From Candidatus Sulfotelmatobacter sp. (GTDB lineage Bacteria > Acidobacteriota > Terriglobia > Terriglobales > Acidobacteriaceae), in assembly GCA_049280095.1 (NCBI GenBank), contig JBAPPL010000028.1, positions 260,362-324,361 on the forward strand: a stretch of DNA of 64,000 nt, written 5' to 3'. The notes under the pieces were generated by a model. That model was not told the origin of the DNA. It saw nothing but the letters and a program-made list of their open reading frames with translations, and did no database searches. Below, piece after piece: positions 1,295-58,827 of this stretch. A program made the position numbers and the translations under genes. Numbering within the stretch: position 1 is the stretch's first letter; each line of letters begins with the position of its first letter.

Positions 1295-1329
1295 CGACTG
1301 AGAACTGAGAACCGAGAACTGAAAACTGT
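1295..1329. repeat. heptamer tandem array (GAACTGA-like, 5 units)
   Basis: Units read cgactga gaactga gaaccga gaactga aaactgt, directly at the 5' end of the permease gene. Confidence 0.8.
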
Positions 1330-8343: not shown

Positions 8344-8366
8344 ATTTGGGAAGTGCAAGAAAGCGA

Positions 8367-8387
8367 GAAGCTAGAAGCTAGAAGCTA
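8367..8387. repeat. heptamer tandem array (GAAGCTA x3)
   Basis: Three perfect units immediately upstream of the AAGGAG Shine-Dalgarno (8391-8396) of pspA. Confidence 0.8.
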
Positions 8388-8402: not shown

Positions 8403-9062
8403 ATGGCATTACTCGAGCGTGTTTCCACATTAGTCCGGGCCAACCTCAACGATCTGATCGATAAGGCTGAGGAGCCGGAGAAGATGATCAAGCAGGTGAT
8501 TCTCGACATGCAGAACCAACTGCTGCAGGTGAAGACGCAGGTGGCGATTGCCATTGCCGATCAGCATCTGCTCGAGAAAAAACAAAAAGAGAACGAAGAA
8601 AAAGTGGCGGAATGGATGCGCAAGGCCGAACTGTCAGTCGACAAGAAACAGGACGACCTGGCACGAGCCTCATTGCAGCGCGTGGAAAGCTATCGCGAGA
8701 TGAGCGAGAGCTTCTTGCAGCAGGTGACAGACCAGAAGGCGCAGGTGGAGAACCTGAAGTCGGCGCTGCGCCAGTTGGAGCAGAAGCTGAGCGAGGCGCA
8801 GGCCAAGGCCGATCTGCTGATTGCGCAACATCGCCGCGCCCGGGCCGTGGGCAAGGCCAGTGACGCGCGCCTGGCCATGGGCGACGGCTCGAAAGCCGCG
8901 GCTTTCGACCGTATGAAGCGCAAAGTGGCGCACTCTGAAGCGGTGGGGCAGGCGAAGGCCGAGATTGCCAGCGACAATATGGAAGACCGCCTCGCCGCGC
9001 TGGAAAAAGAAGATCGCATTGAGCAGTTGCTGGCGGAGCTGAAGGGGAAGCGCGGAGCTTAG
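8403..9062 (+). CDS. pspA: PspA/IM30-family protein (phage shock protein A-like)
   Basis: MALLERVSTLVRANLNDLIDKAEEPEKMIKQVILDMQNQLLQVKTQVA matches the PspA N-terminus. The rest is coiled coil. Confidence 0.9.
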   Translation: MALLERVSTLVRANLNDLIDKAEEPEKMIKQVILDMQNQLLQVKTQVAIAIADQHLLEKKQKENEEKVAEWMRKAELSVDKKQDDLARASLQRVESYREMSESFLQQVTDQKAQVENLKSALRQLEQKLSEAQAKADLLIAQHRRARAVGKASDARLAMGDGSKAAAFDRMKRKVAHSEAVGQAKAEIASDNMEDRLAALEKEDRIEQLLAELKGKRGA

Positions 9063-19633: not shown

Positions 19634-19640
19634 GGAGGAT

Positions 19641-19698
19641 GCTCCTAGCTTCTAGCTGCTGGCTACTAGCTAAAAGCTAGGGGCTAGAAGCTAGGAGC
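19641..19698. repeat. heptamer (nnAGCTn) array forming a 16-bp inverted repeat
   Basis: GCTCCTAGCTTCTAGC (19641-19656) is the exact reverse complement of GCTAGAAGCTAGGAGC (19683-19698). There is an inner CTAGC/GCTAG stem. The element spans the trmH-like stop and the rarA Shine-Dalgarno. Confidence 0.85.
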
Positions 19699-20564
19699 CT
19701 TCTCTGCCTCGCTGCCTCGTAAAGCACGATGCTCGCTGCCACGCCGGCGTTGAGAGATTCCACCTGCTGCGTGTGAGGAATGGAGATGAATTCGTCCATT
19801 TTGGCCATTGTTTCGCGCGGCAGGCCGGCGCCCTCATTGCCGAAAAAGATCGCGGTCGCACCCTTCAAGTCTGCCTGATCCAGCGGCGTTCCTTTGTGCG
19901 AGGAAGTTGCAATCAGGCGCACATCTTTTGCTCGCAGCTTGTTTGAAACTTCTTCTAACTTTGCTGTAGACGACTTTCCGCGCGCGTGAGATTGCCCGTG
20001 AACTACGGGCAGACGGAACACCGATCCAGCCGAGGCGCGCACGACTTTCGAGTTGAACGGGCTGACTGTGCCATCACCCAAAACCACTCCCGCGCTACCA
20101 AACGCTTCGGACGAGCGAAGGATTGTGCCCAGGTTGCCTGGGTCTTGCAGTCCGGCCAACACAACGATCGGGCCGACTTGCGACCGTTCTTCCTCCATGA
20201 GATCGTCGAGCGAAAATTCCTTCAGGCGAACCAAAGCGACTACGCCTTGGGGCGATTCGCTGGGCACGAGGCTGTCGAACAATTTGTCGGGGAGCAGCAG
20301 AGTTTCGACCTGAGCACCGAGTTGCGGTAGCAGGCGTTCTGCCCGGTCTTGGGCTGATTCACGAAAGAACACTGCGCTGAAGCGCAGGCCACTGCGGATG
20401 GCCTCTTCCAGGATGCGCAAGCCTTCGATCGCGCAATCTCCGCTTTCGGTGAGTTCGGCGCGTGAAAATGCCTGGCGTAGCTGTTTGACCAGCGGGTTGT
20501 GGCGCCCTTCAATGCGGCGTAGCCTGTGCTGCACGCTGAGCGCGGGTTCTGAGGATTTTCCCAT
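19677..20564 (-). CDS. TrmH/SpoU-family RNA 2'-O-methyltransferase
   Basis: VLAGLQDPGNLGTILRSSEAFG..., IFFGNEGAGLP..., ESLNAGVAASIVLYE. Confidence 0.85.
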   Translation of the reverse strand: MGKSSEPALSVQHRLRRIEGRHNPLVKQLRQAFSRAELTESGDCAIEGLRILEEAIRSGLRFSAVFFRESAQDRAERLLPQLGAQVETLLLPDKLFDSLVPSESPQGVVALVRLKEFSLDDLMEEERSQVGPIVVLAGLQDPGNLGTILRSSEAFGSAGVVLGDGTVSPFNSKVVRASAGSVFRLPVVHGQSHARGKSSTAKLEEVSNKLRAKDVRLIATSSHKGTPLDQADLKGATAIFFGNEGAGLPRETMAKMDEFISIPHTQQVESLNAGVAASIVLYEAARQRRLLASSP

Positions 20565-20670
20565 CGGACATAGACCGCTAATTGTTACTGAATGATACGC
20601 CGCATGCGCGTCTTGCGGCCCTTTGCCGTATTATGGTAGGTTCCACGGACAAAATATTCCAAGCGGAATT

Positions 20671-21336
20671 ATGCGGGAAGGGAGCGCTGTGCGCGCCGAA
20701 ATCCTAAAAATCAATTGTGATACCCCTGAGAGTTCACTGGTCAAGTACGCCGCCGATCAGATTCGCGCCGGCGAGGTACTGGGCATGCCGACCGATACCT
20801 TTTACGGGCTGGCTGCCGATCCGTTCAACCTGCGCGCCGTCGACCGGGTATACGACATCAAGACCCGCTCGCGGCACAAACCGTTGTCGCTGCTCATCGA
20901 AAGCGTAGATCAGGCGGAAGAGCTAGCCAAATCGTTGCCCGAAGAATTTTACGCTCTGGCGCGGCAATACTGGCCGGGACCGCTCACCATCATTGTGAAA
21001 GCCGGGTCACGTCTTCCCCTGAAAGTGACTGCTAATACCGGCAACGTGGCGCTGCGCGTGCCGAATGCCCAGATTCCGCGGGCGGTGGTTGCGGCCGCGG
21101 CCATTCCGATCACGGCTACGTCGGCCAATCTGAGTGGGGCTTCGGAATGTACCAGCGCCGAGCAGGTGCGCGACCAACTCGAGGGGCGCATCAGCATTAT
21201 CGTGGACGGCGGAACTTCCCCCCGCGACATCGCTTCCACCATCATTGACCTCACCGACGAAGGTGCGCGCTGGCGAGTTATCCGGGAAGGTGCGATCCCG
21301 GCCGAGGAAATTTCCACGTTCTTCGCTAAAGGATGA
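20671..21336 (+). CDS. tsaC: L-threonylcarbamoyladenylate synthase (TsaC/YrdC/Sua5 family)
   Basis: GEVLGMPTDTFYGLAADPFN, YWPGPLTIIV, ALRVPN..., TATSANLSG. Start is ambiguous (TTG 20623, ATG 20671 or GTG 20690). Confidence 0.85.
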   Translation: MREGSAVRAEILKINCDTPESSLVKYAADQIRAGEVLGMPTDTFYGLAADPFNLRAVDRVYDIKTRSRHKPLSLLIESVDQAEELAKSLPEEFYALARQYWPGPLTIIVKAGSRLPLKVTANTGNVALRVPNAQIPRAVVAAAAIPITATSANLSGASECTSAEQVRDQLEGRISIIVDGGTSPRDIASTIIDLTDEGARWRVIREGAIPAEEISTFFAKG

Positions 21337-21363
21337 CTCACGCCAAAGGATGATCGCCAGAGG

Positions 21364-21993
21364 ATGACTGACAATTCTGTCAACCGGCATCCCCGACGCC
21401 GCTCGCTGCAGTGGCTGGAGGCGCTTGGGCTGGCGGTATTGGCTGCGCTGGTTTGGTTCGTTATCCTGACAGTGATCGGCATTGTGCATCAGGGAACGCT
21501 ACAGGAAGTCCACCCGGCAGATGCCATTGTCGTATTCGGCGCGGCGGAGTATTCCGGCCGTCCCTCACCCGTGTTGCGGGCGCGGCTCGATCATGCCTTC
21601 GATCTTTTCGAGAAGGGGATCGCTCCCGTGGTGATTGTCACCGGCGGCGCGGCTTCGGATCCCAGCTTCAGCGAAGGCGGTGTGGGCAGCGATTACCTGA
21701 AGCACCGCGGGATTCCGGAGCGCGACCTGATCGCCGAGACCCAAGGTTCCGACACGGCTCAATCGGCGGTGCGGGTGGCTGTGATCATGCGTGCCAATGG
21801 ACTGCACAGTTGCGTGGCCGTCAGTGATGCGTATCACGTGTTTCGCATTAAGAGGCTGCTGGAACATGAGGGCATCGGCCCGGTGTATGTTGCGCCCCGG
21901 CCTGATTCGCGCCCGCACAGTGTCGCGCAGCGGGCGTATGCGGTAATGCGGGAAGCGACCAGCTACTTGCTGTGGAAGCTGGGAATGAGCTAA
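21364..21993 (+). CDS. YdcF/DUF218-family (SanA/ElyC-like) protein
   Basis: N-terminal TM, then DAIVVFGAAEYSGRPSPVLRARLDHAFDLFEKGIAPVVIVTGG. Confidence 0.75.
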   Translation: MTDNSVNRHPRRRSLQWLEALGLAVLAALVWFVILTVIGIVHQGTLQEVHPADAIVVFGAAEYSGRPSPVLRARLDHAFDLFEKGIAPVVIVTGGAASDPSFSEGGVGSDYLKHRGIPERDLIAETQGSDTAQSAVRVAVIMRANGLHSCVAVSDAYHVFRIKRLLEHEGIGPVYVAPRPDSRPHSVAQRAYAVMREATSYLLWKLGMS

Positions 21994-25840: not shown

Positions 25841-25943
25841 CGTCATCCCGAGCGAAGCGAGGGATCGTGGTTTCTGCCTGCATCGTCAAGATTGAGCTGA
25901 CCCAGACAAACACCAGGATCCCTCGCTTCGCTCGGGATGACAG
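25841..25943. repeat. MITE-like REP-A pair: 25-bp perfect inverted repeats around a 50-bp core
   Basis: GTCATCCCGAGCGAAGCGAGGGATC (25842-25866) is the exact reverse complement of 25917-25941. Confidence 0.85.
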
Positions 25944-39048: not shown

Positions 39049-39079
39049 ATTGAGTTGGCTGGTTGCCCGGATAAAATCT

Positions 39080-39174
39080 AGGTTTCAAAGTTGCAAAGTT
39101 TCAGGGCGAACAGCGCCATTCACAAACAAACTTTGAAGCTCTGAAACTTTGAAACCTCTGCAACTTTGAAACCT
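39080..39174. repeat. octamer-like (CAAAGTTn) arrays in inverted arrangement
   Basis: 39080-39093 pairs with 39161-39174 (14 bp) and 39094-39104 pairs with 39141-39151 (11 bp). There is a 9-nt bulge and a 36-nt loop. Confidence 0.8.
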
Positions 39175-45019: not shown

Positions 45020-45913
45020 CTAATCGTCGTTAACGGAATTCGAATATCGCGCCCCGATCTCTGCTGTCGCGCGCATCAGCGCGTCCAGCGGCTTCAGGGA
45101 CGGTAACTCAGCGCCACGCTGCTTCAGGGCTTCAATCACTGTTTCGGTCGCAATGTTGCCTACCAACGCGTCTTGCGCGAAAGGGCAGCCACCGAATCCG
45201 CCTAACGCCGAGTCGAAGCGGCGGCAGCCGGCGTCGTACGCCGCTAAAATCTTCGCGGCGGCATGCTCAGGACGGCTGTGCAGGTGAACTCCAATCTCCA
45301 GGTAATCGTACTTCGCCATCACCGCTCCGACCAGTTCGCTAATCTGCTCCGGACTGGCCATGCCGACCGTGTCAGCCAGAGAGATCATACGCAGGTTGTC
45401 GACTTCCAGCAGCGAGATCGCCTCAATTACTTCCTCCGCGTTCCACAGATCGCCGTAGGGATTGCCAAATGCCATTGAGATATAAACTACGACATCGAGC
45501 GCGGCATTGTCGGCTTTGGTCTGAATCTTCTCCAGTTCCTCGAGCGCCTGTTCGGCGGACTGATTCTGATTCTTGCGCAAAAAAGTTTCCGAGATCGAAT
45601 AAGGAAATCCCAAAGTATGTACCGCTTGCGTGTCGATGGCGCGCTGCGCTCCCTTTTCGTTGACTACGATGCCGATGATCTCCACGTCATCTGGCGGATC
45701 GAGTTCCTTCAACACTTCCTCCGAGTCCGCCATCTGCGGCACGGCTTTCGGCGACACGAACGAAACCGCATCAATGTGCTTGAACCCGGCACTGATCAAC
45801 GCCTGCAAATAGGCGCGCTTGATGTCGGGCGGAATCTGCCCCTTCAGCCCCTGCCAGGCATCGCGCGGACATTCGATGAGCTTCACGGCGTCGGACATAT
45901 CAAAACCTGCCAC
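45020..45913 (-). CDS. hydroxymethylglutaryl-CoA lyase
   Basis: ECPRDAWQG, HLHSRPEHAAAKILAAYDAGCRRFDSALGGFGGCPFA. Confidence 0.85.
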   Translation of the reverse strand: MAGFDMSDAVKLIECPRDAWQGLKGQIPPDIKRAYLQALISAGFKHIDAVSFVSPKAVPQMADSEEVLKELDPPDDVEIIGIVVNEKGAQRAIDTQAVHTLGFPYSISETFLRKNQNQSAEQALEELEKIQTKADNAALDVVVYISMAFGNPYGDLWNAEEVIEAISLLEVDNLRMISLADTVGMASPEQISELVGAVMAKYDYLEIGVHLHSRPEHAAAKILAAYDAGCRRFDSALGGFGGCPFAQDALVGNIATETVIEALKQRGAELPSLKPLDALMRATAEIGARYSNSVNDD

Positions 45914-46010
45914 GGATCACACGGATTCTCACGGATCAAACCTTAAAAGGGAAAACTTCAAAGACTTCATTTTCTTTGATCCGTGTAAATCCGTGAAAAT
46001 CTGCGGCCAA

Positions 46011-56545: not shown

Positions 56546-56641
56546 CCCAGCGTTCTGTTGTGATCATAGGGAAGCGAGCGCGCGCGGGCAAGACGGCAGC
56601 AGGTAACCGGTACGACCGGTCGGTCAGTGCCTGACAGTGTG

Positions 56642-57409
56642 TCACTTCGGGGCGTTGCGCGAAATTTCCCACGCCTTGGCATATTTCCACGAGACGTAGC
56701 CAGCGTGGTAGAGGTGCAGCAGCAGGCCTTCGCGGCCGTCGAGGAAGCCGAGTCGGCAGAAGTAGTTGTAGGTGAACGTCGCCAGCGGCCGCAGAACGAT
56801 GTTGATGAAACTGAAGCCGCTGTGACCCTTGGCGATCGCCAACTGCGCGCCCAGCGAGGAATAACGGTTCATGTGGGCGAGATAGAGAGTGAGTGTGGGG
56901 TAGGTGTAGTGAATGAGCGCGTTCTTGAATTGGACGATCGTTTGGCGAACTTCTGGTTTCAGTTCGCAACGGTCGTGCGGGTCATGGCCGGTCACAAATC
57001 CCTGCCCACGCCTGAACAACCGCAGCTTAGGATCAGGGTAGAAACCGCCGTGGCGAATCCATCGCCCAAGAAACAGATTCTTGCGTGGGAGTTTGTAGCC
57101 GATGGCAGCGTTCGGGTTTGCGATGGCAGCGCGAATCTCTCCGGCTAGGCCCGGACTTACCTCCTCGTCCGCATCCAGCAGCAGCACCCAATCCTTGGTG
57201 CACAGCTCGATCGCATACTGTTTCTGCGCCACGTAGCCGCGCCACGCTTCCAGCACGGTGCGGGCTCCGTGCTCCCGCGCGATCTCGCAGGTGCGATCCT
57301 TCGAGCCAGAATCGACGAGCACGATCTCATCGGCCCAGCGCACGCTGGCTAGCGTGCGGCCGATATTCGCCTCTTCGTCCATCGCCACTATGGCCACGGA
57401 GATTGTCAT
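56642..57409 (-). CDS. family 2 glycosyltransferase
   Basis: ISVAIVAMDEEANIGRTLASVRWADEIVLVDSGSKDRT and LLLDADE. Confidence 0.85.
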   Translation of the reverse strand: MTISVAIVAMDEEANIGRTLASVRWADEIVLVDSGSKDRTCEIAREHGARTVLEAWRGYVAQKQYAIELCTKDWVLLLDADEEVSPGLAGEIRAAIANPNAAIGYKLPRKNLFLGRWIRHGGFYPDPKLRLFRRGQGFVTGHDPHDRCELKPEVRQTIVQFKNALIHYTYPTLTLYLAHMNRYSSLGAQLAIAKGHSGFSFINIVLRPLATFTYNYFCRLGFLDGREGLLLHLYHAGYVSWKYAKAWEISRNAPK

Positions 57410-57413
57410 AGGG

Positions 57414-57512
57414 GAATTGCTGATTGCTAATTGTTGATTGCTGATTGCAACCCAGAGTCGATCAGCTTTTCAATCATCAATCATCAATCATCAATCATCA
57501 ATCATCAATCAT
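57414..57512. repeat. two heptamer arrays, (TGATTGC)x5 and (CAATCAT)x6, in near-inverted orientation
   Basis: 57414-57448 reads gaattgc tgattgc taattgt tgattgc tgattgc. 57471-57512 holds six perfect caatcat units. The arrays are reverse complements except for one position per unit. Confidence 0.9.
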
Positions 57513-57522
57513 CAATAACTTC

Positions 57523-58779
57523 TCAGCCACTAGCAGTGCGGCTCCGGATTTCAGAAAGCAGAAACACGATCAGGATGAACAACTCCGGTTCGATCGGATG
57601 GCGGTAGCGGGCATGCGGAAACACGAAGTAATAGACCGTGGGATAAGTTGCGACGAGTCCGGCGAAAAGCCACGCTCCGGGCCGCTTTTGCCGCAGCGCA
57701 CGACCGAGTCCCCAGATCGCCAGCACTGACGATGCCAGGAAAAGCGAACTGCGGAAATCCCAGGGAGCTGTGCTGTGCGTCGGTCTGGGCACTCCATTCC
57801 AGAAATAGAAGAAACGCTTCATGCTGATCAGTGCGAACCGCTGCGGATGCTCGCGAATCCAATCGAACGCCAGCCGCCTGCAGTCGGCCTCGTAGGCAAT
57901 TTCGCCCATGCGTTGAAACTTCTCGAGCTCTAGCTTATTGAGATTGGGCTGCAGGGTCGCGATCAGCATGCCGTCGGCCATCTTGTTGTTGCCGAGACGA
58001 AACTGCAATCCGAAATCGTCACGAATGAAAACGAAGCGTCCAAAGACCTCGTAGTTTCGAATCAGCCACGGAGATAGAACCAGAAAGAACACAAAAGAGG
58101 AAAGCACGACGCCGGCGAGCGACGGCAGTCCACGCCGGTATCTCTGCCGCCACACCCAAAGGCCGCAGAACGGCAGAAAGGCGAGCATCGCGGGATTTGC
58201 CAGAGCCCCAACGCCCCACAATATGCCGAACAGTGTCCATCCTCGCCAACCCGGCCACTGCTGCAGTTCCAGAGAAAGCCAAAAAACTAATGCCAGCATC
58301 AGCGGAGTGAAGGTCGTGTCCCATATCCAATGAACCGACCAGTACCAGACATAGGGATTAAGCGCCCACGCCCCGGCCGACCACAGTGCAACGCGCGGGC
58401 CGAAGGTCCGGTGCGCAGTCAGGAATACCGGAATAGTGGTGAGCGATGCAAAAAAACTATTGATCGACAGCAATACCCATGCGGATGCGTAAGTGTAAAC
58501 GCCAAAAACCTTGAAGACTCCGCCAATCAGGTAGGGATAGAGCGGTGGCTCCCAGGCGGTGGGACCGGCATTGCCTCCATAAGGATTGCTGAACCCCTGC
58601 CCCAGAGCGATCGAACGGCCGACGCGGCCCATCTCAAAGCCGAAGCCGAAGTTATCTTCTCCGGGGCGAGTGCGATACTGGCGGAGAATTCCGATCGCCA
58701 CCAATTGCAGAAGAAACGAAAGCAGCACCATCCACAACACCGATCGCGGCATGGCTGGGAGATGCGGTCGTTCCATCAC
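57523..58779 (-). CDS. GT39/ArnT-like polytopic membrane protein
   Basis: About 10 TM segments. FGFEMGRVGRSIALGQGFSNPYG...PPLYPYLIG, similar in style to GT39/PMT_2 proteins. Confidence 0.5.
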   Translation of the reverse strand: MMERPHLPAMPRSVLWMVLLSFLLQLVAIGILRQYRTRPGEDNFGFGFEMGRVGRSIALGQGFSNPYGGNAGPTAWEPPLYPYLIGGVFKVFGVYTYASAWVLLSINSFFASLTTIPVFLTAHRTFGPRVALWSAGAWALNPYVWYWSVHWIWDTTFTPLMLALVFWLSLELQQWPGWRGWTLFGILWGVGALANPAMLAFLPFCGLWVWRQRYRRGLPSLAGVVLSSFVFFLVLSPWLIRNYEVFGRFVFIRDDFGLQFRLGNNKMADGMLIATLQPNLNKLELEKFQRMGEIAYEADCRRLAFDWIREHPQRFALISMKRFFYFWNGVPRPTHSTAPWDFRSSLFLASSVLAIWGLGRALRQKRPGAWLFAGLVATYPTVYYFVFPHARYRHPIEPELFILIVFLLSEIRSRTASG

Positions 58780-58827
58780 CGGGGAGTTTATCAGGTCTAA
58801 GCGGGTGCCTCGCGGAACCCATCCCTT

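What the first reader, a model, noticed from the sequence alone, without database searches (positions are those of the whole stretch)
57414..57512. Back-to-back heptamer arrays predicting a long imperfect hairpin between two glycosyltransferase genes
Seen: five TGATTGC-type units (57414-57448) and six perfect CAATCAT units (57471-57512) are separated by 22 nt. The arrays are reverse complements of each other except for one position in each 7-nt unit. The element fills the whole gap between the GT39-like stop (57523) and the GT2 start (57409) on the minus strand. Inference: it could form an attenuator- or processing-type stem-loop. Its length should be prone to change by slipped-strand mispairing, because the period of 7 is not a multiple of 3. 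Similar short-period arrays recur at 1295-1329, 8367-8387, 19641-19698 and 39080-39174, so this looks like a genome-wide element class at gene boundaries.
Basis: partly seen in the sequence, partly recalled or inferred. Interest (0 to 1): 0.6.

Follow-up and report, generated by a model that had tools for sequence, protein, structure and literature searches.

The report
Heptamer-repeat hairpin between two glycosyltransferase genes
The 113-base gap between two co-directional glycosyltransferase genes of a soil acidobacterium is filled by a hairpin whose arms are 7-base tandem repeats; it belongs to a repeat class already described in Xanthomonas and cyanobacteria, its repeat number differs between near-identical strains, and it sits between the downstream gene's start codon and what was probably its original ribosome-binding site.

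Summary
On the mRNA (minus) strand the order is: PMT_2 gene stop, (UUGAUGA)x6.7, a 21-nt apex, (NCAAUCA)x4.7, CCCCU, then the AUG of the GT2 gene. The predicted RNA hairpin has -31.7 kcal/mol.

The organism is a Terriglobia acidobacterium (Ca. Sulfotelmatobacter-like). The same element sits at the same junction in 32 of 48 related species. Seven nested species instead have the bare 4-nt ATGA stop/start overlap.

Ten independent assemblies of the same strain population differ by 0-2 SNPs in 3.6 kb. They carry three length alleles that differ by exactly 7 or 14 nt, and only in the perfect arm. The predicted slippage is therefore real.

There is no terminator or promoter signature, and I found no arm covariation specific to any lineage.

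GT2's AUG has no local Shine-Dalgarno in any of the 32 filled alleles. An SD-like GAGGAG sits at the 5' base of the stem, and folding reduces the SD-AUG distance from 80-127 nt to about 5-10 nt.

Best reading: a slippage-grown fold-back repeat of a known class (Xanthomonas GGGAATC pairs, cyanobacterial STRR). It is tolerated, and possibly exploited, because folding keeps the two cistrons translationally adjacent. Function is inferred, not shown.

The parts
57523..58779 (-). Upstream gene: PMT_2-family (GT-C fold) glycosyltransferase, 418 aa. Its stop codon TGA is at 57525-57523.
   Evidence: Pfam PF13231, E = 2.6e-11. Orthologues have 73-95% identity in 80 Acidobacteriota genomes.
57519..57524 (-). 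Purine tract GAGAAG that overlaps the stop codon, 2 nt before the stem base. It is the weak local version of the SD-like GAGGAG/GGAGGAG/AAGGAGG found at this position in relatives.
   Evidence: Anti-SD duplex energy is -2.7 kcal/mol here. The median over 32 orthologues is -6.0, and 16 of 32 are at or below -6, against 9.7% of random coding windows.
57470..57518 (-). 5' arm of the RNA hairpin: a perfect (UUGAUGA)n array with UGA in every unit, which gives stops in all three frames. This is the part that is length-polymorphic.
   Evidence: TRF gives 6.7 copies at 100% identity. Alleles shorter by 7 or 14 nt occur in assemblies that are otherwise identical.
57449..57469 (-). Apex or loop (AAAAGCUGAUCGACUCUGGGUUG), homologous across the orthologous elements.
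   Evidence: Alignments. The GAAAAGCWGA...UGGGUUGC motif is shared, which indicates a single origin at this junction.
57415..57448 (-). 3' arm of the RNA hairpin: an imperfect (NCAAUCA)n array (GCAAUCAGCAAUCAACAAUUAGCAAUCAGCAAUU). It is invariant among strains and nearly invariant among the closest species.
   Evidence: TRF gives 4.7 copies at 84% identity.
57410..57414 (-). Pyrimidine linker CCCCU between the stem base and the AUG. There is no Shine-Dalgarno here.
   Evidence: The local SD energy is +1.2 kcal/mol. None of the 32 filled alleles has a local SD at or below -6.
56642..57409 (-). Downstream gene: family-2 glycosyltransferase (GT2), 255 aa, with ATG at 57409-57407.
   Evidence: Pfam PF00535, E = 4.7e-19. 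The start is fixed by orthologues, including the ATGA overlaps.
19635..19704 (-). Same class at another locus: a CUAGCUU/AAGCUAG array hairpin between two co-directional genes. The upstream stop lies inside the 5' arm, and the downstream SD AGGAG and the AUG (19633) are masked.
   Evidence: -40.4 kcal/mol, z = -2.9. The RBS opening energy is 20.8 kcal/mol, the second highest of 50 genes.
39077..39174 (-). Same class at another locus: a period-8/17 GUUUCAAA/UUUGAAAC array hairpin between co-directional genes.
   Evidence: -40.2 kcal/mol, z = -4.1.
45911..46001 (-). Same class at another locus: a period-9/10 CACGGAUNN array hairpin that abuts the start of gene 45020-45913.
   Evidence: -44.6 kcal/mol, z = -7.7. 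It has the highest RBS opening energy of 50 genes, 26.3 kcal/mol.
1297..1328 (+). Single (ACUGAGA)x4.6 array, 10 nt after the stop of ORF 808-1287. It has no inverted partner.
8361..8387 (+). Single (AAGCUAG)x3.9 array just upstream of the SD AAGGAG and the ATG at 8403. It has no inverted partner.

Best explanation
This is one locus of the heptamer-array hairpin class: intergenic 7-nt simple-sequence repeats that occur as convergent inverted pairs.

Origin and change (shown or strongly inferred). A (TGATTGN)n ... (NCAATCA)n fold-back arose once, inside or next to the 4-nt stop/start overlap (ATGA) of a PMT_2-type GT-C gene and its GT2 partner. This happened in the ancestor of a Ca. Sulfotelmatobacter-like clade. 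Its outermost unit, ATTGCTG, is the ancestral C-terminal coding sequence. Since then it has been inherited vertically. It changes by gain and loss of whole 7-nt units, which is replication slippage and is fastest in the perfect arm. It also changes by homogenisation of units, and by repeated loss or allelic replacement back to the bare ATGA.

Function (inferred). The element is transcribed inside a bicistronic mRNA and folds into a long imperfect stem-loop. The stem is not a terminator. Its main consequence is geometric. The insertion separated GT2's start codon from what was probably its original Shine-Dalgarno and from the upstream stop codon by about 100 nt. Folding brings them back to within about 5-10 unpaired nucleotides. 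GT2 translation can then continue through a split ribosome-binding site and/or through termination-reinitiation coupling.

The repeat is therefore best seen as a self-propagating by-product of mutation that persists because it closes on itself. It is not a dedicated regulatory device. UGA in every unit of the 5' arm also guarantees termination of the upstream ORF in any frame, whatever the unit number.
For: Anatomy and fold.

Class membership:
- Other array-armed hairpins lie at co-directional junctions in the same window.
- Hairpins with a different unit (GAAGUCA/ACUUCUG) occupy the same junction in sister lineages L045, L059 and L065.
- TGATTGN/NCAATCA hairpins occur at many unrelated loci in soil metagenomes.
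- The class is published for Xanthomonas and Nostoc: heptamers, about 90% intergenic, on average 28 nt from the upstream ORF, 70-75 convergent pairs, length variation between species (PMC4692102).

Single origin and inheritance: 32 of 48 orthologous junctions carry the element, with a homologous apex.

Empty allele: it reads ...CGAGGC(A/G)TTG(C/T)TGA|ATGAC, and ATTGCTG is itself one unit. The tree forces at least 4 changes between filled and empty.

Slippage:
- Ten assemblies have an identical GT2 protein and 0-2 SNPs per 3.6 kb. The distance from anchor to ATG is 116, 109 or 102 nt, and all the change is in the perfect arm.
- Between species there are unit-sized indels: +13/14 nt in the window, +7 in L010, -7 in L009.

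Backup stops: L201 has TGA>AGA at the stop, and its ORF ends at an array UGA. In 24 of 32 species the stop lies inside the 5' arm.

Strand: the sense strand is more stable in 26 of 32 loci, by a mean of 4.7 kcal/mol.

No promoter-like or terminator-like site lies in the spacer.

Split-RBS geometry:
- The local SD is absent in all 32 filled alleles (median +1.2 kcal/mol).
- Five of 7 empty alleles have GAGG at -5.9 kcal/mol.
- The 5' stem flank has median -6.0, with 16 of 32 at or below -6, against 9.7% of random coding windows.
- The predicted stem cuts SD-AUG spacing from 80-127 nt to a median of 8.5 nt. It is 5-10 nt in 17 of 21 loci with a strong SD.
- Two flank types carry different SD-like sequences at the same position next to the stem: CGAGGC, or a 9-nt GGAGGAGTC insert.

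Precedent: phage T4 genes 38 and 25, where a hairpin between the SD and the AUG restores the spacing (PMC3014915).

Five unrelated metagenome loci have the upstream stop within 12 nt of the 5' arm and the AUG within 3 nt of the 3' arm, with no local SD.
Against: Nothing shows that the pairing itself is under selection.
- Native arm pairs fold no better than chimeras of arms from different species (-35.9 vs -35.4 kcal/mol, permutation p = 0.21).
- On the apex alignment 83% of cells pair, against 14-48% with slid partners, but covariation does not exceed shuffles.

In the window itself:
- The 5' arm has expanded and homogenised without compensation in the 3' arm. This leaves an A.G or A.A mismatch in every unit and a weaker hairpin (-31.7 vs about -49 kcal/mol in L005, L007 and L008).
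- The SD-like tract is weak (GAGAAG, -2.7 kcal/mol).

The short effective spacing could be a historical by-product. The insertion happened next to the old SD, and slippage does not touch the flanks.

RBS masking is inconsistent. Opening energy ranges from 2 to 24 kcal/mol among orthologues and is 9.1 here, close to the window median of 8.5.

The sequence looks more conserved than four-fold degenerate sites. However, aligned identity is inflated by repetitiveness: 0.81 against a block-shuffled partner. The neighbouring spacers are about as conserved.

At class level, many hairpins lie between convergent genes or far from any start codon, so coupling cannot be the general role.

There are no transcript data.
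Confidence: 0.5

Rival explanations
1. A purely neutral or selfish slippage and fold-back product with no effect on expression. GT2 would be translated by SD-independent initiation on an AU-rich leader, and the stem-base geometry would be a historical accident.
For: There is no lineage-specific covariation. The window's 5' arm expanded without compensation. The element was lost or replaced repeatedly. The class occupies all kinds of intergenic contexts. Only 26% of window genes have a strong SD.
Against: No local SD evolved in any of 32 species, while SD-like tracts persist, and in some species are stronger than the ancestral one, exactly at the 5' stem base. The sense strand is more stable in 26 of 32 loci. 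The core units TGATTG and CAATCA remain complementary in all 32 species although four-fold degenerate sites are only 46-83% identical.
Confidence: 0.25
2. A REP-like intercistronic stem-loop that acts on mRNA fate. It would be a barrier to 3'-5' exonucleases or an RNase III site. It would stabilise the upstream PMT_2 segment and uncouple the amounts of the two proteins, as in malE-malF REPs or Neisseria Correia elements.
For: The stem is long and near-perfect in relatives, with up to about 26 contiguous pairs in L001. It begins 9 nt after the stop in the window, and the stop lies inside the 5' arm in 24 of 32 relatives. It sits between co-directional genes. Class members often follow stop codons and also lie between convergent genes (PMC4692102). 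The role of REP and Correia elements rests on my own knowledge of that literature.
Against: There are no RNA data. The ancestral state was tight ATGA coupling, and GT2 keeps no RBS of its own after the stem, so cleavage would leave an mRNA that is hard to translate.
Confidence: 0.15
3. A contingency (phase-variation-like) tuner. Changes of unit number in 7-nt steps would alter the stem register, and so the SD-AUG geometry or hairpin strength. The population would then carry different GT2 levels for a surface-glycan modifying pair.
For: Three length alleles occur in a population that is otherwise clonal. The predicted register at the stem base shifts by about 6 nt in the 109-nt allele. Repeats in 5' leaders that tune expression are known (Moraxella uspA2 AGAT, cited in PMC4679880). 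Phase variation of GT2 plus GT-C glycan-modifying systems is known in other bacteria (my own knowledge).
Against: All three alleles fold about equally well (-29.9, -31.2 and -32.9 kcal/mol). The class occurs beside all kinds of genes. The repeats are neither inside an ORF nor between promoter hexamers.
Confidence: 0.07
4. A miniature mobile element (MITE, REP or Correia type) that inserted at TGA^ATGA and is copied between loci.
For: The same unit and the same arm order occur at many loci. Of 56 arrays in contigs with at least 54% GC, 20 have CAATCA arrays downstream and none upstream. Another locus in three soil metagenomes carries both orientations of a 33-nt arm identical to the window's 3' arm. 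The empty sites are exact.
Against: There is no target-site duplication at the filled/empty boundary. The outermost 5' unit, ATTGCTG, is ancestral host coding sequence. Loops at different loci are unrelated. Other hairpins in the same window use other units. Only one TGATTG element lies in the 64-kb window, and TRF found TGATTG-type arrays in the 80 related loci only at this junction.
Confidence: 0.08
5. An intrinsic terminator or attenuator between the two genes.
For: A stable stem-loop lies in an intercistronic gap.
Against: The stem is AT-rich, no U-run follows it, and the scan finds no terminator-like site in the spacer. The downstream gene has no promoter-like site of its own. In empty alleles the genes overlap.
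Confidence: 0.03

Closest known systems
Paired (convergent) GGGAATC heptamer repeats of Xanthomonas campestris and X. axonopodis, and GGGGA(C/T)T of Nostoc (Rehm et al. 2015, PMC4692102)
   Same: The unit has 7 nt. The repeats form tandem arrays of about 4 or more units. About 90% are intergenic and lie close to the 3' end of the upstream ORF. They are often found between co-directional genes. Dozens occur as two arrays in convergent orientation that can form stem-loops. Length and sequence vary between close relatives.
   Different: Here the unit is AU-rich (TGATTGN) rather than G-rich, so there is no G-quadruplex potential. The host phylum is Acidobacteriota. This locus also shows an exact empty allele, strain-level 7-nt polymorphism and a position between an SD-like tract and a start codon. 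None of these is reported for that system.
Cyanobacterial STRR heptamers and TAACTGA repeats of Beggiatoaceae, Cyanobacteria and Bacteroidetes (MacGregor 2015, PMC4679880)
   Same: These are heptamer tandem repeats concentrated a few nucleotides upstream of start codons. Canonical RBSs are rare in the intergenic regions that carry them. Stop codons in the unit limit overlap with ORFs. A post-transcriptional role has been proposed.
   Different: TAACTGA repeats are almost all direct: 169 direct sets and one indirect. They are predicted not to fold. Here the arrays are inverted pairs that fold. The unit sequences differ.
Split ribosome-binding sites of phage T4 genes 38 and 25 (Nivinskas et al. 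1999; Malys and Nivinskas 2009; reviewed in PMC3014915)
   Same: The SD and the AUG are too far apart in the linear sequence. An intervening hairpin brings them to 5-11 nt. The arrangement lies at an intercistronic junction and arose within one clade. Here the spacing falls from 80-127 nt to a median of 8.5 nt.
   Different: The T4 hairpins span about 15-20 nt, are unique sequences, and are proven by mutation and probing. Here the intervening structure is 4-5 times longer, is built of hypermutable repeats, and is untested. The window's own SD-like tract is weak.
REP/BIME, ERIC and Correia-type intergenic palindromes
   Same: These are transcribed imperfect palindromes after stop codons and inside operons. 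They can alter mRNA stability or processing (own knowledge).
   Different: Those families have conserved, family-specific sequences, are present in many near-identical copies, and are mobilised by RAYT or other transposases, in some cases with target duplications. Here the arms are microsatellites, the units differ from locus to locus, the loops are unrelated, and no duplication is seen at the empty site.
Phase-variable simple-sequence repeats (contingency loci), for example AGAT repeats in the Moraxella uspA2 leader
   Same: The repeat number varies within a population through slippage. The repeat lies in an untranslated leader of a surface-related gene.
   Different: Contingency repeats are usually 1-5 nt long and lie in ORFs or promoters of host-adapted pathogens. 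No expression switch is shown here, and the same class lies beside other kinds of genes, for example an ABC-transporter permease-like ORF.

Membership tests
Intergenic heptameric SSR / convergent heptamer pairs (Mrazek 2007 LSSR; Rehm 2015) | Tandem array of a 7-nt unit, about 4 or more copies, more than chance | tested here: met
   TRF reports 4.7 and 6.7 copies. There are 9 pattern matches against 0.28 expected.
Intergenic heptameric SSR / convergent heptamer pairs (Mrazek 2007 LSSR; Rehm 2015) | Intergenic, close to the 3' end of the upstream ORF | tested here: met
   The 5' arm begins 4-6 nt after the stop, and the predicted stem 9 nt after it, in the window. The stop lies inside the arm in 24 of 32 orthologues.
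Intergenic heptameric SSR / convergent heptamer pairs (Mrazek 2007 LSSR; Rehm 2015) | Two arrays in convergent orientation able to form a stem-loop | tested here: met
   In metagenome contigs with at least 54% GC, 20 of 56 arrays have the inverted array downstream and none upstream.
Intergenic heptameric SSR / convergent heptamer pairs (Mrazek 2007 LSSR; Rehm 2015) | Unit number varies between relatives (slippage) | tested here: met
   Alleles of 116, 109 and 102 nt occur among assemblies with 0-2 SNPs per 3.6 kb. Indels of 7 and 13/14 nt occur among species.
Intergenic heptameric SSR / convergent heptamer pairs (Mrazek 2007 LSSR; Rehm 2015) | Genome-wide over-representation of period-7 arrays | tested here: inconclusive
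In 798 kb (window plus related loci) there are 59 period-7 and 29 period-14 arrays at low stringency, against about 20 and about 2 per Markov shuffle. Many of these are the focal junction itself.
Cyanobacterial STRR | Specific heptamers (for example CCCCAGT, TTGGTCA, CAACAGT) in heterocystous cyanobacteria | tested here: not met
   The unit is TGATTGN and the host is Acidobacteriota. The STRR consensus sequences are from my own knowledge.
REP/BIME | Conserved 20-40-nt palindrome with a family-specific head, in many near-identical copies, with a RAYT transposase | tested here: not met
   Only one TGATTG element lies in the 64-kb window. Other hairpins use other units.
MITE (Correia, ERIC and similar) | Terminal inverted repeats plus target-site duplication, conserved internal sequence, and an empty site that lacks both repeats | tested here: not met
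   The empty site is ...ATTGCTGA|ATGAC and the filled site is ...ATTGCTGA|TTC...CCCT|ATGAC. There is no duplication, and the outer 5' unit is present in the empty allele. Loops at other loci are unrelated.
Intrinsic (Rho-independent) terminator | GC-rich stem followed by a U-run | tested here: not met
   The scan finds none in the spacer. The stem is AT-rich and is followed by CCCCUAUG.
Split RBS bridged by a hairpin (T4 gene 38/25 type) | SD too far from the AUG in linear sequence, and no SD at normal distance | tested here: met
   None of 32 filled alleles has a local SD. An SD-like tract lies 80-127 nt upstream. In the window itself the tract is weak (GAGAAG).
Split RBS bridged by a hairpin (T4 gene 38/25 type) | The intervening structure reduces the spacing to a functional 5-11 nt | tested here: met
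   Predicted only. The median is 8.5 nt; 17 of 21 strong-SD loci fall at 5-10 nt; the window gives 8 nt.
Split RBS bridged by a hairpin (T4 gene 38/25 type) | Stem-disrupting mutations lower translation and compensatory mutations restore it | not testable with these tools
   This needs reporter fusions. The natural covariation tests were negative or uninformative.
Phase-variable contingency locus | Repeat-number change switches expression (frame or promoter spacing) | tested here: inconclusive
   The number varies within the population. However, the repeat is in neither an ORF nor a promoter, and all alleles fold alike. The effect on expression is untested.

The most novel reading that the evidence does not exclude
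The hairpin may be a working part of the operon: a self-closing spacer. Its stem base holds the terminating ribosome and/or an upstream Shine-Dalgarno next to an SD-less start codon that lies about 100 nt away in the linear sequence. That would be a split RBS, or termination-reinitiation across a hairpin, 4-5 times longer than the phage T4 precedents. Because the arms are microsatellites, slippage in 7-nt steps could shift the stem register, so that clonal populations carry alleles with different GT2:PMT_2 ratios. The stop / hairpin / AUG geometry without a local SD recurs at unrelated loci (L123, L146, L157, L165, L178). This could therefore be a general way in which Acidobacteria tolerate or use repeat hairpins inside translationally coupled gene pairs.
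Probability: 0.25. Interest if true: 0.7.

Novelty: new member of a known kind. Interest (0 to 1): 0.4.

Why it matters
Heptamer SSRs and their inverted pairs have been known for decades in cyanobacteria and since 2015 in Xanthomonas, but no function has been established for them.

This locus is an unusually clean natural experiment:
- an exact empty allele (the ATGA overlap);
- 32 filled species-level alleles of one origin;
- hairpins with a different unit at the same site in sister lineages;
- three length alleles inside one near-clonal population.

It shows directly that the perfect arm mutates by whole units much faster than point mutation.

It also yields a concrete hypothesis that can be tested at the bench: folding of the repeat restores the stop/SD-to-AUG proximity that the insertion destroyed.

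If that holds, it would explain how such repeats can invade tightly coupled operon junctions without breaking them. It would also add a hypermutable, long-range version of the split RBS known from phage T4.

Tried and rejected
- Rfam gave only sub-threshold miRNA-like hairpin hits (34 bits against a gathering score of 53), so no known RNA family matches.
- RNA evidence: no RNA run holds the stretch.
- Logan contigs (k = 31) break inside the arrays. The single contig with a 14-nt deletion at 57470 (X1) is what a k-mer collapse of a perfect 47-nt period-7 repeat to 33 nt would produce, so I did not count it as variation. The exact-protein look-up gave the valid test.
- Arm co-evolution: native hairpins are not more stable than chimeric ones. 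RNAalifold found no consensus. Pair counting shows conservation without covariation.
- Total spacer length differences among species are not enriched for multiples of 7 (17 of 136 pairs), because loops and flanks also change. Unit-sized indels appear only in the alignment of close relatives.
- Conservation against four-fold degenerate sites turned out to be confounded by repeat-inflated alignment identity, and the neighbouring spacers are about as conserved. It is therefore only weak support for constraint.
- RBS masking by the stem is inconsistent among orthologues and average in the window.
- The terminator or attenuator reading was rejected.
- The MITE reading was rejected for this locus (no target duplication).
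- A literature search for the unit sequences found nothing relevant.
- The repeat finder with 8-nt seeds misses the focal hairpin, because its exact runs are only 6 nt.
Full report
**What is there**

Both arrays are real. Tandem Repeats Finder reports 57416-57448 (period 7, 4.7 copies, 84% matches) and 57470-57516 (period 7, 6.7 copies, 100% matches), 21 nt apart. The pattern TGATTGNTGATTG with up to 1 mismatch occurs nine times in the window, all inside this element, against 0.28 expected by chance.

The flanking genes are on the minus strand. A PMT_2-family (GT-C) glycosyltransferase occupies 57523-58779, and a family-2 glycosyltransferase occupies 56642-57409. A TolC-like gene lies upstream and a methylmalonyl-CoA-mutase gene downstream.

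Read as mRNA, the spacer runs as follows:
- UGA, overlapping GAGAAG;
- UUA, then (UUGAUGA)x6.7;
- a 21-nt apex;
- GCAAUCAGCAAUCAACAAUUAGCAAUCAGCAAUU;
- CCCCU, then AUG.

It folds into 6-bp helices separated by single A.G or A.A mismatches. The energy is -31.7 kcal/mol (z = -2.65), against -26.6 kcal/mol for the opposite strand. Rfam gives only sub-threshold miRNA-like hairpin matches. No sigma-70-like promoter or intrinsic-terminator-like site lies in the spacer.

**Whose it is, and its history**

The PMT_2 protein has relatives of 73-95% identity in 80 Acidobacteriota genomes, named Ca. Sulfotelmatobacter, Acidobacteriaceae or Terriglobia. I located the orthologous PMT_2/GT2 junction in 48 of them, counting the window.
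- In 32 the spacer is the same element. It has TGATTGN units 5', NCAATCA units 3', and a homologous apex (GAAAAGCWGA...UGGGUUGC or GGAAGCAGAGUG...UGGUUUC). Predicted stabilities range from -15 to -50 kcal/mol for the stop-to-AUG segment and from -22 to -57 for the spacer alone.
- In seven the genes overlap as ATGA, reading ...CGAGGC(A/G)TTG(C/T)TGA|ATGAC.

The last codons of the empty allele (ATTGCTG-A) are themselves one repeat unit, and the 3' end of the insert (CAGCAAT) is its reverse complement. No target duplication is present.

On a tree of the two flanking proteins the filled alleles fill a well-supported clade of 44. The empty alleles are nested in it at four or more places. The most economical reading is one origin in place, followed by repeated loss or allelic replacement.

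In more distant relatives (L045, L059, L065) the same junction holds a hairpin built from a different heptamer, GAAGUCA/ACUUCUG, at -41 to -50 kcal/mol. Its 5' arm is the end of the PMT_2 ORF.

**Slippage is real**

An exact-sequence look-up of the GT2 protein returned ten further assemblies from different samples. Over 3.6 kb of flanks they differ from the window by 0-2 bases. L204 is an exception: an indel in its PMT_2 gene upset the ungapped comparison.

In these assemblies the distance from a fixed anchor (GCTAGTGGC) to the ATG is:
- 116 nt in the window and L202;
- 109 nt in six assemblies;
- 110 nt in one assembly, with an extra T;
- 102 nt in two assemblies.

Every difference is a whole number of UUGAUGA units in the perfect arm. 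The apex, the imperfect 3' arm and the flanks are identical. Records named in both styles carry more than one allele: flye-style 'contig_' ENA assemblies and NCBI MAG records. Judging by the naming of sibling records, these are long-read and k127 short-read assemblies respectively.

One assembly (L201) has TGA>AGA at the PMT_2 stop. Its ORF simply ends at the next UGA inside the array.

Among the closest species there are unit-sized indels: +13/14 nt in the window, +7 in L010 and -7 in L009. In the window all seventh positions of the 5' arm have been homogenised to A, whereas relatives have C, U or A.

Logan contigs could not be used for this question. They break in the arrays, and one shows a 14-nt loss that matches a k-mer collapse.

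**A class, not a one-off**

The window holds three more array-armed hairpins at co-directional gene junctions:
- 19635-19704 (-40.4 kcal/mol);
- 39077-39174 (-40.2 kcal/mol);
- 45911-46001 (-44.6 kcal/mol, z = -7.7).

Each has its own unit. There are also single arrays at gene ends, for example 1297-1328, 10 nt after a stop, and 8361-8387, just upstream of an SD.

A scan of public metagenome contigs for four TGATTGN units returned 120 loci of very mixed origin, with GC from 28% to 69%. In contigs with at least 54% GC, 20 of 56 arrays had NCAATCA arrays within 150 nt downstream and none upstream. The arm order is thus always 5'-TGATTG...CAATCA-3'. I cannot explain this asymmetry. Rehm et al. 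likewise describe their pairs only as convergent. The loops at these loci are unrelated. The contexts include co-directional, convergent and promoter-proximal gaps.

In soil runs that hold this organism, word depth over the perfect array is 7-70 times that of the flanks in most runs. So (TCAATCA)n arrays are common there.

The published counterparts are:
- the heptameric repeats of Xanthomonas and Nostoc: about 90% intergenic, on average 28 nt from the upstream ORF, 70-75 convergent pairs, variable between species (PMC4692102);
- the TAACTGA repeats upstream of start codons in Beggiatoaceae (PMC4679880).

Earlier notes of this scan describe the same class in many other Acidobacteria windows. 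I treated them as leads only. No paper in the searchable library mentions these unit sequences in bacteria.

**How it most likely works**

Shown:
- The element lies between two genes that overlapped ancestrally.
- It folds better as sense RNA: 26 of 32 loci, by a mean of 4.7 kcal/mol.
- It has no terminator features.
- Every unit of its 5' arm carries UGA, so the upstream ORF ends in any frame. In 24 of 32 species the stop lies inside the arm.

Also shown:
- GT2's AUG has no local Shine-Dalgarno in any of the 32 filled alleles (median anti-SD duplex +1.2 kcal/mol).
- Five of the seven empty alleles have GAGG at normal distance (-5.9 kcal/mol).
- The 16 nt just 5' of the stem base are SD-like in the filled alleles. 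The median is -6.0 kcal/mol, and 16 of 32 are at or below -6, against 9.7% of random coding windows.
- Two flank types achieve this with different sequences: CGAGGC, or an extra GGAGGAGTC.
- The predicted stem reduces the SD-to-AUG distance from 80-127 nt to a median of 8.5 unpaired nt. It is 5-10 nt in 17 of 21 loci with a strong SD, and 8 nt in the window.

This is the geometry of the split ribosome-binding sites of phage T4 genes 38 and 25 (22 to 5 nt and 27 to 11 nt; PMC3014915). Here the hairpin is four to five times longer and is made of microsatellite.

Five unrelated metagenome loci show the upstream stop within 12 nt of the 5' arm and the AUG within 3 nt of the 3' arm, again without a local SD.

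From this I infer that the repeat is a by-product of mutation (slippage plus fold-back copying) that can live inside a coupled junction. Folding keeps the stop, the old SD and the AUG together.

**What speaks against a selected structure**

- Hairpins made from the 5' half of one species and the 3' half of another are as stable as native ones (-35.4 vs -35.9 kcal/mol, p = 0.21).
- On an apex alignment 83% of cells pair, against 14-48% with slid partners. This is because the sequence is conserved: covariation does not exceed shuffles.
- The window's own arm expansion is uncompensated, and its SD-like tract is weak.
- RBS opening energy is average here (9.1 vs a window median of 8.5 kcal/mol) and ranges from 2 to 24 among orthologues. 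By contrast, the two highest values in the window belong to genes that directly follow other array hairpins.
- The element looks more conserved than four-fold degenerate sites. But alignment identity of repeats is inflated, at 0.81 against a block-shuffled partner, and the neighbouring spacers are about as conserved.
- The short effective spacing may simply be inherited from where the insertion happened.

**Verdict**

The element is a new, well-documented member of a known but functionally unexplained repeat class. It shows direct evidence of unit slippage within a population and offers a specific, testable idea about how it coexists with translational coupling. The attenuator, MITE and classical phase-variation readings are unlikely. 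A REP-like role in mRNA stability or processing, and pure neutrality, remain open rivals.

Noticed in passing
window 25842-25941: The longest inverted repeat in the window has 39-nt arms that are 90% complementary (GTCATCCCGAGCGAAGCGAGGGATC...), with 22 nt between them. It is not built of short tandem units and looks like a different, REP-like palindrome family.
   Followed up: no
window 56546-56641 (minus strand), upstream of the mutase gene: The spacer between GT2 and the methylmalonyl-CoA-mutase gene is conserved across species. It holds a palindrome, TGACCGACCGGTCG, followed by a promoter-like TTGCCC-17-TATGAT. This looks like an operator plus promoter, so the mutase is probably a separate transcription unit.
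   Followed up: partly
window 58780-58800 (minus strand), just upstream of the PMT_2 start: The motif GACCTGATAAACTCCCC(G/C) is almost invariant directly before the PMT_2 start in every related locus printed before the output was cut, although the rest of that spacer varies in length from 39 nt to over 1 kb.
   Followed up: no
L044-L079 (for example L050:5293-5345, L062, L067), between PMT_2 and GT2-like genes of distant relatives: A conserved motif GTGAGACAATTTCGAGTCC (or ...GACAATACCGCGTT) recurs upstream of the GT2-like gene, and also after the different-unit hairpins of L045, L059 and L065. It may be a promoter or leader element.
   Followed up: no
Soil metagenome runs X1, X5, X9 (contigs of 1298, 2595 and 671 nt): Another locus carries both orientations of a 33-nt arm identical to window 57414-57446, including its variant TAATTG unit. 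The flanks are unrelated (GGCGCGTCATGTGTCGAGCGGCA... and ...TTTAAACTCCCTTTACCGCC). This hints at copying or conversion between hairpins at different loci. I could not fetch the locus.
   Followed up: partly
Metagenome loci L081-L200: The arm order is one-sided. In contigs with at least 54% GC, 20 of 56 TGATTGN arrays have NCAATCA arrays downstream and none upstream. I have no explanation for this.
   Followed up: partly
window 21323-21369: A period-14/15 array repeats AAGGATGA(C) three times, that is SD-like AGGA plus ATG plus TGA. It lies exactly at the junction of genes 20623-21336 and 21364-21993.
   Followed up: no
L201:1389-1420; L204:116-1394; L043:4001-4129; L005:5354-5782: Some assemblies have disrupted reading frames in this gene pair. 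In L201 the PMT_2 stop TGA is AGA, and the ORF ends in the array. PMT_2 is split in L204. There are early stops in PMT_2 of L043 and in GT2 of L005. These may be real pseudogenes or assembly errors.
   Followed up: no
L012:5255-5301: A decayed version of the element keeps the 5' units but has lost the 3' arm (31-nt spacer). Here a GAAGG lies 11 nt before the ATG, which gives a local SD-like tract where the hairpin is gone.
   Followed up: no
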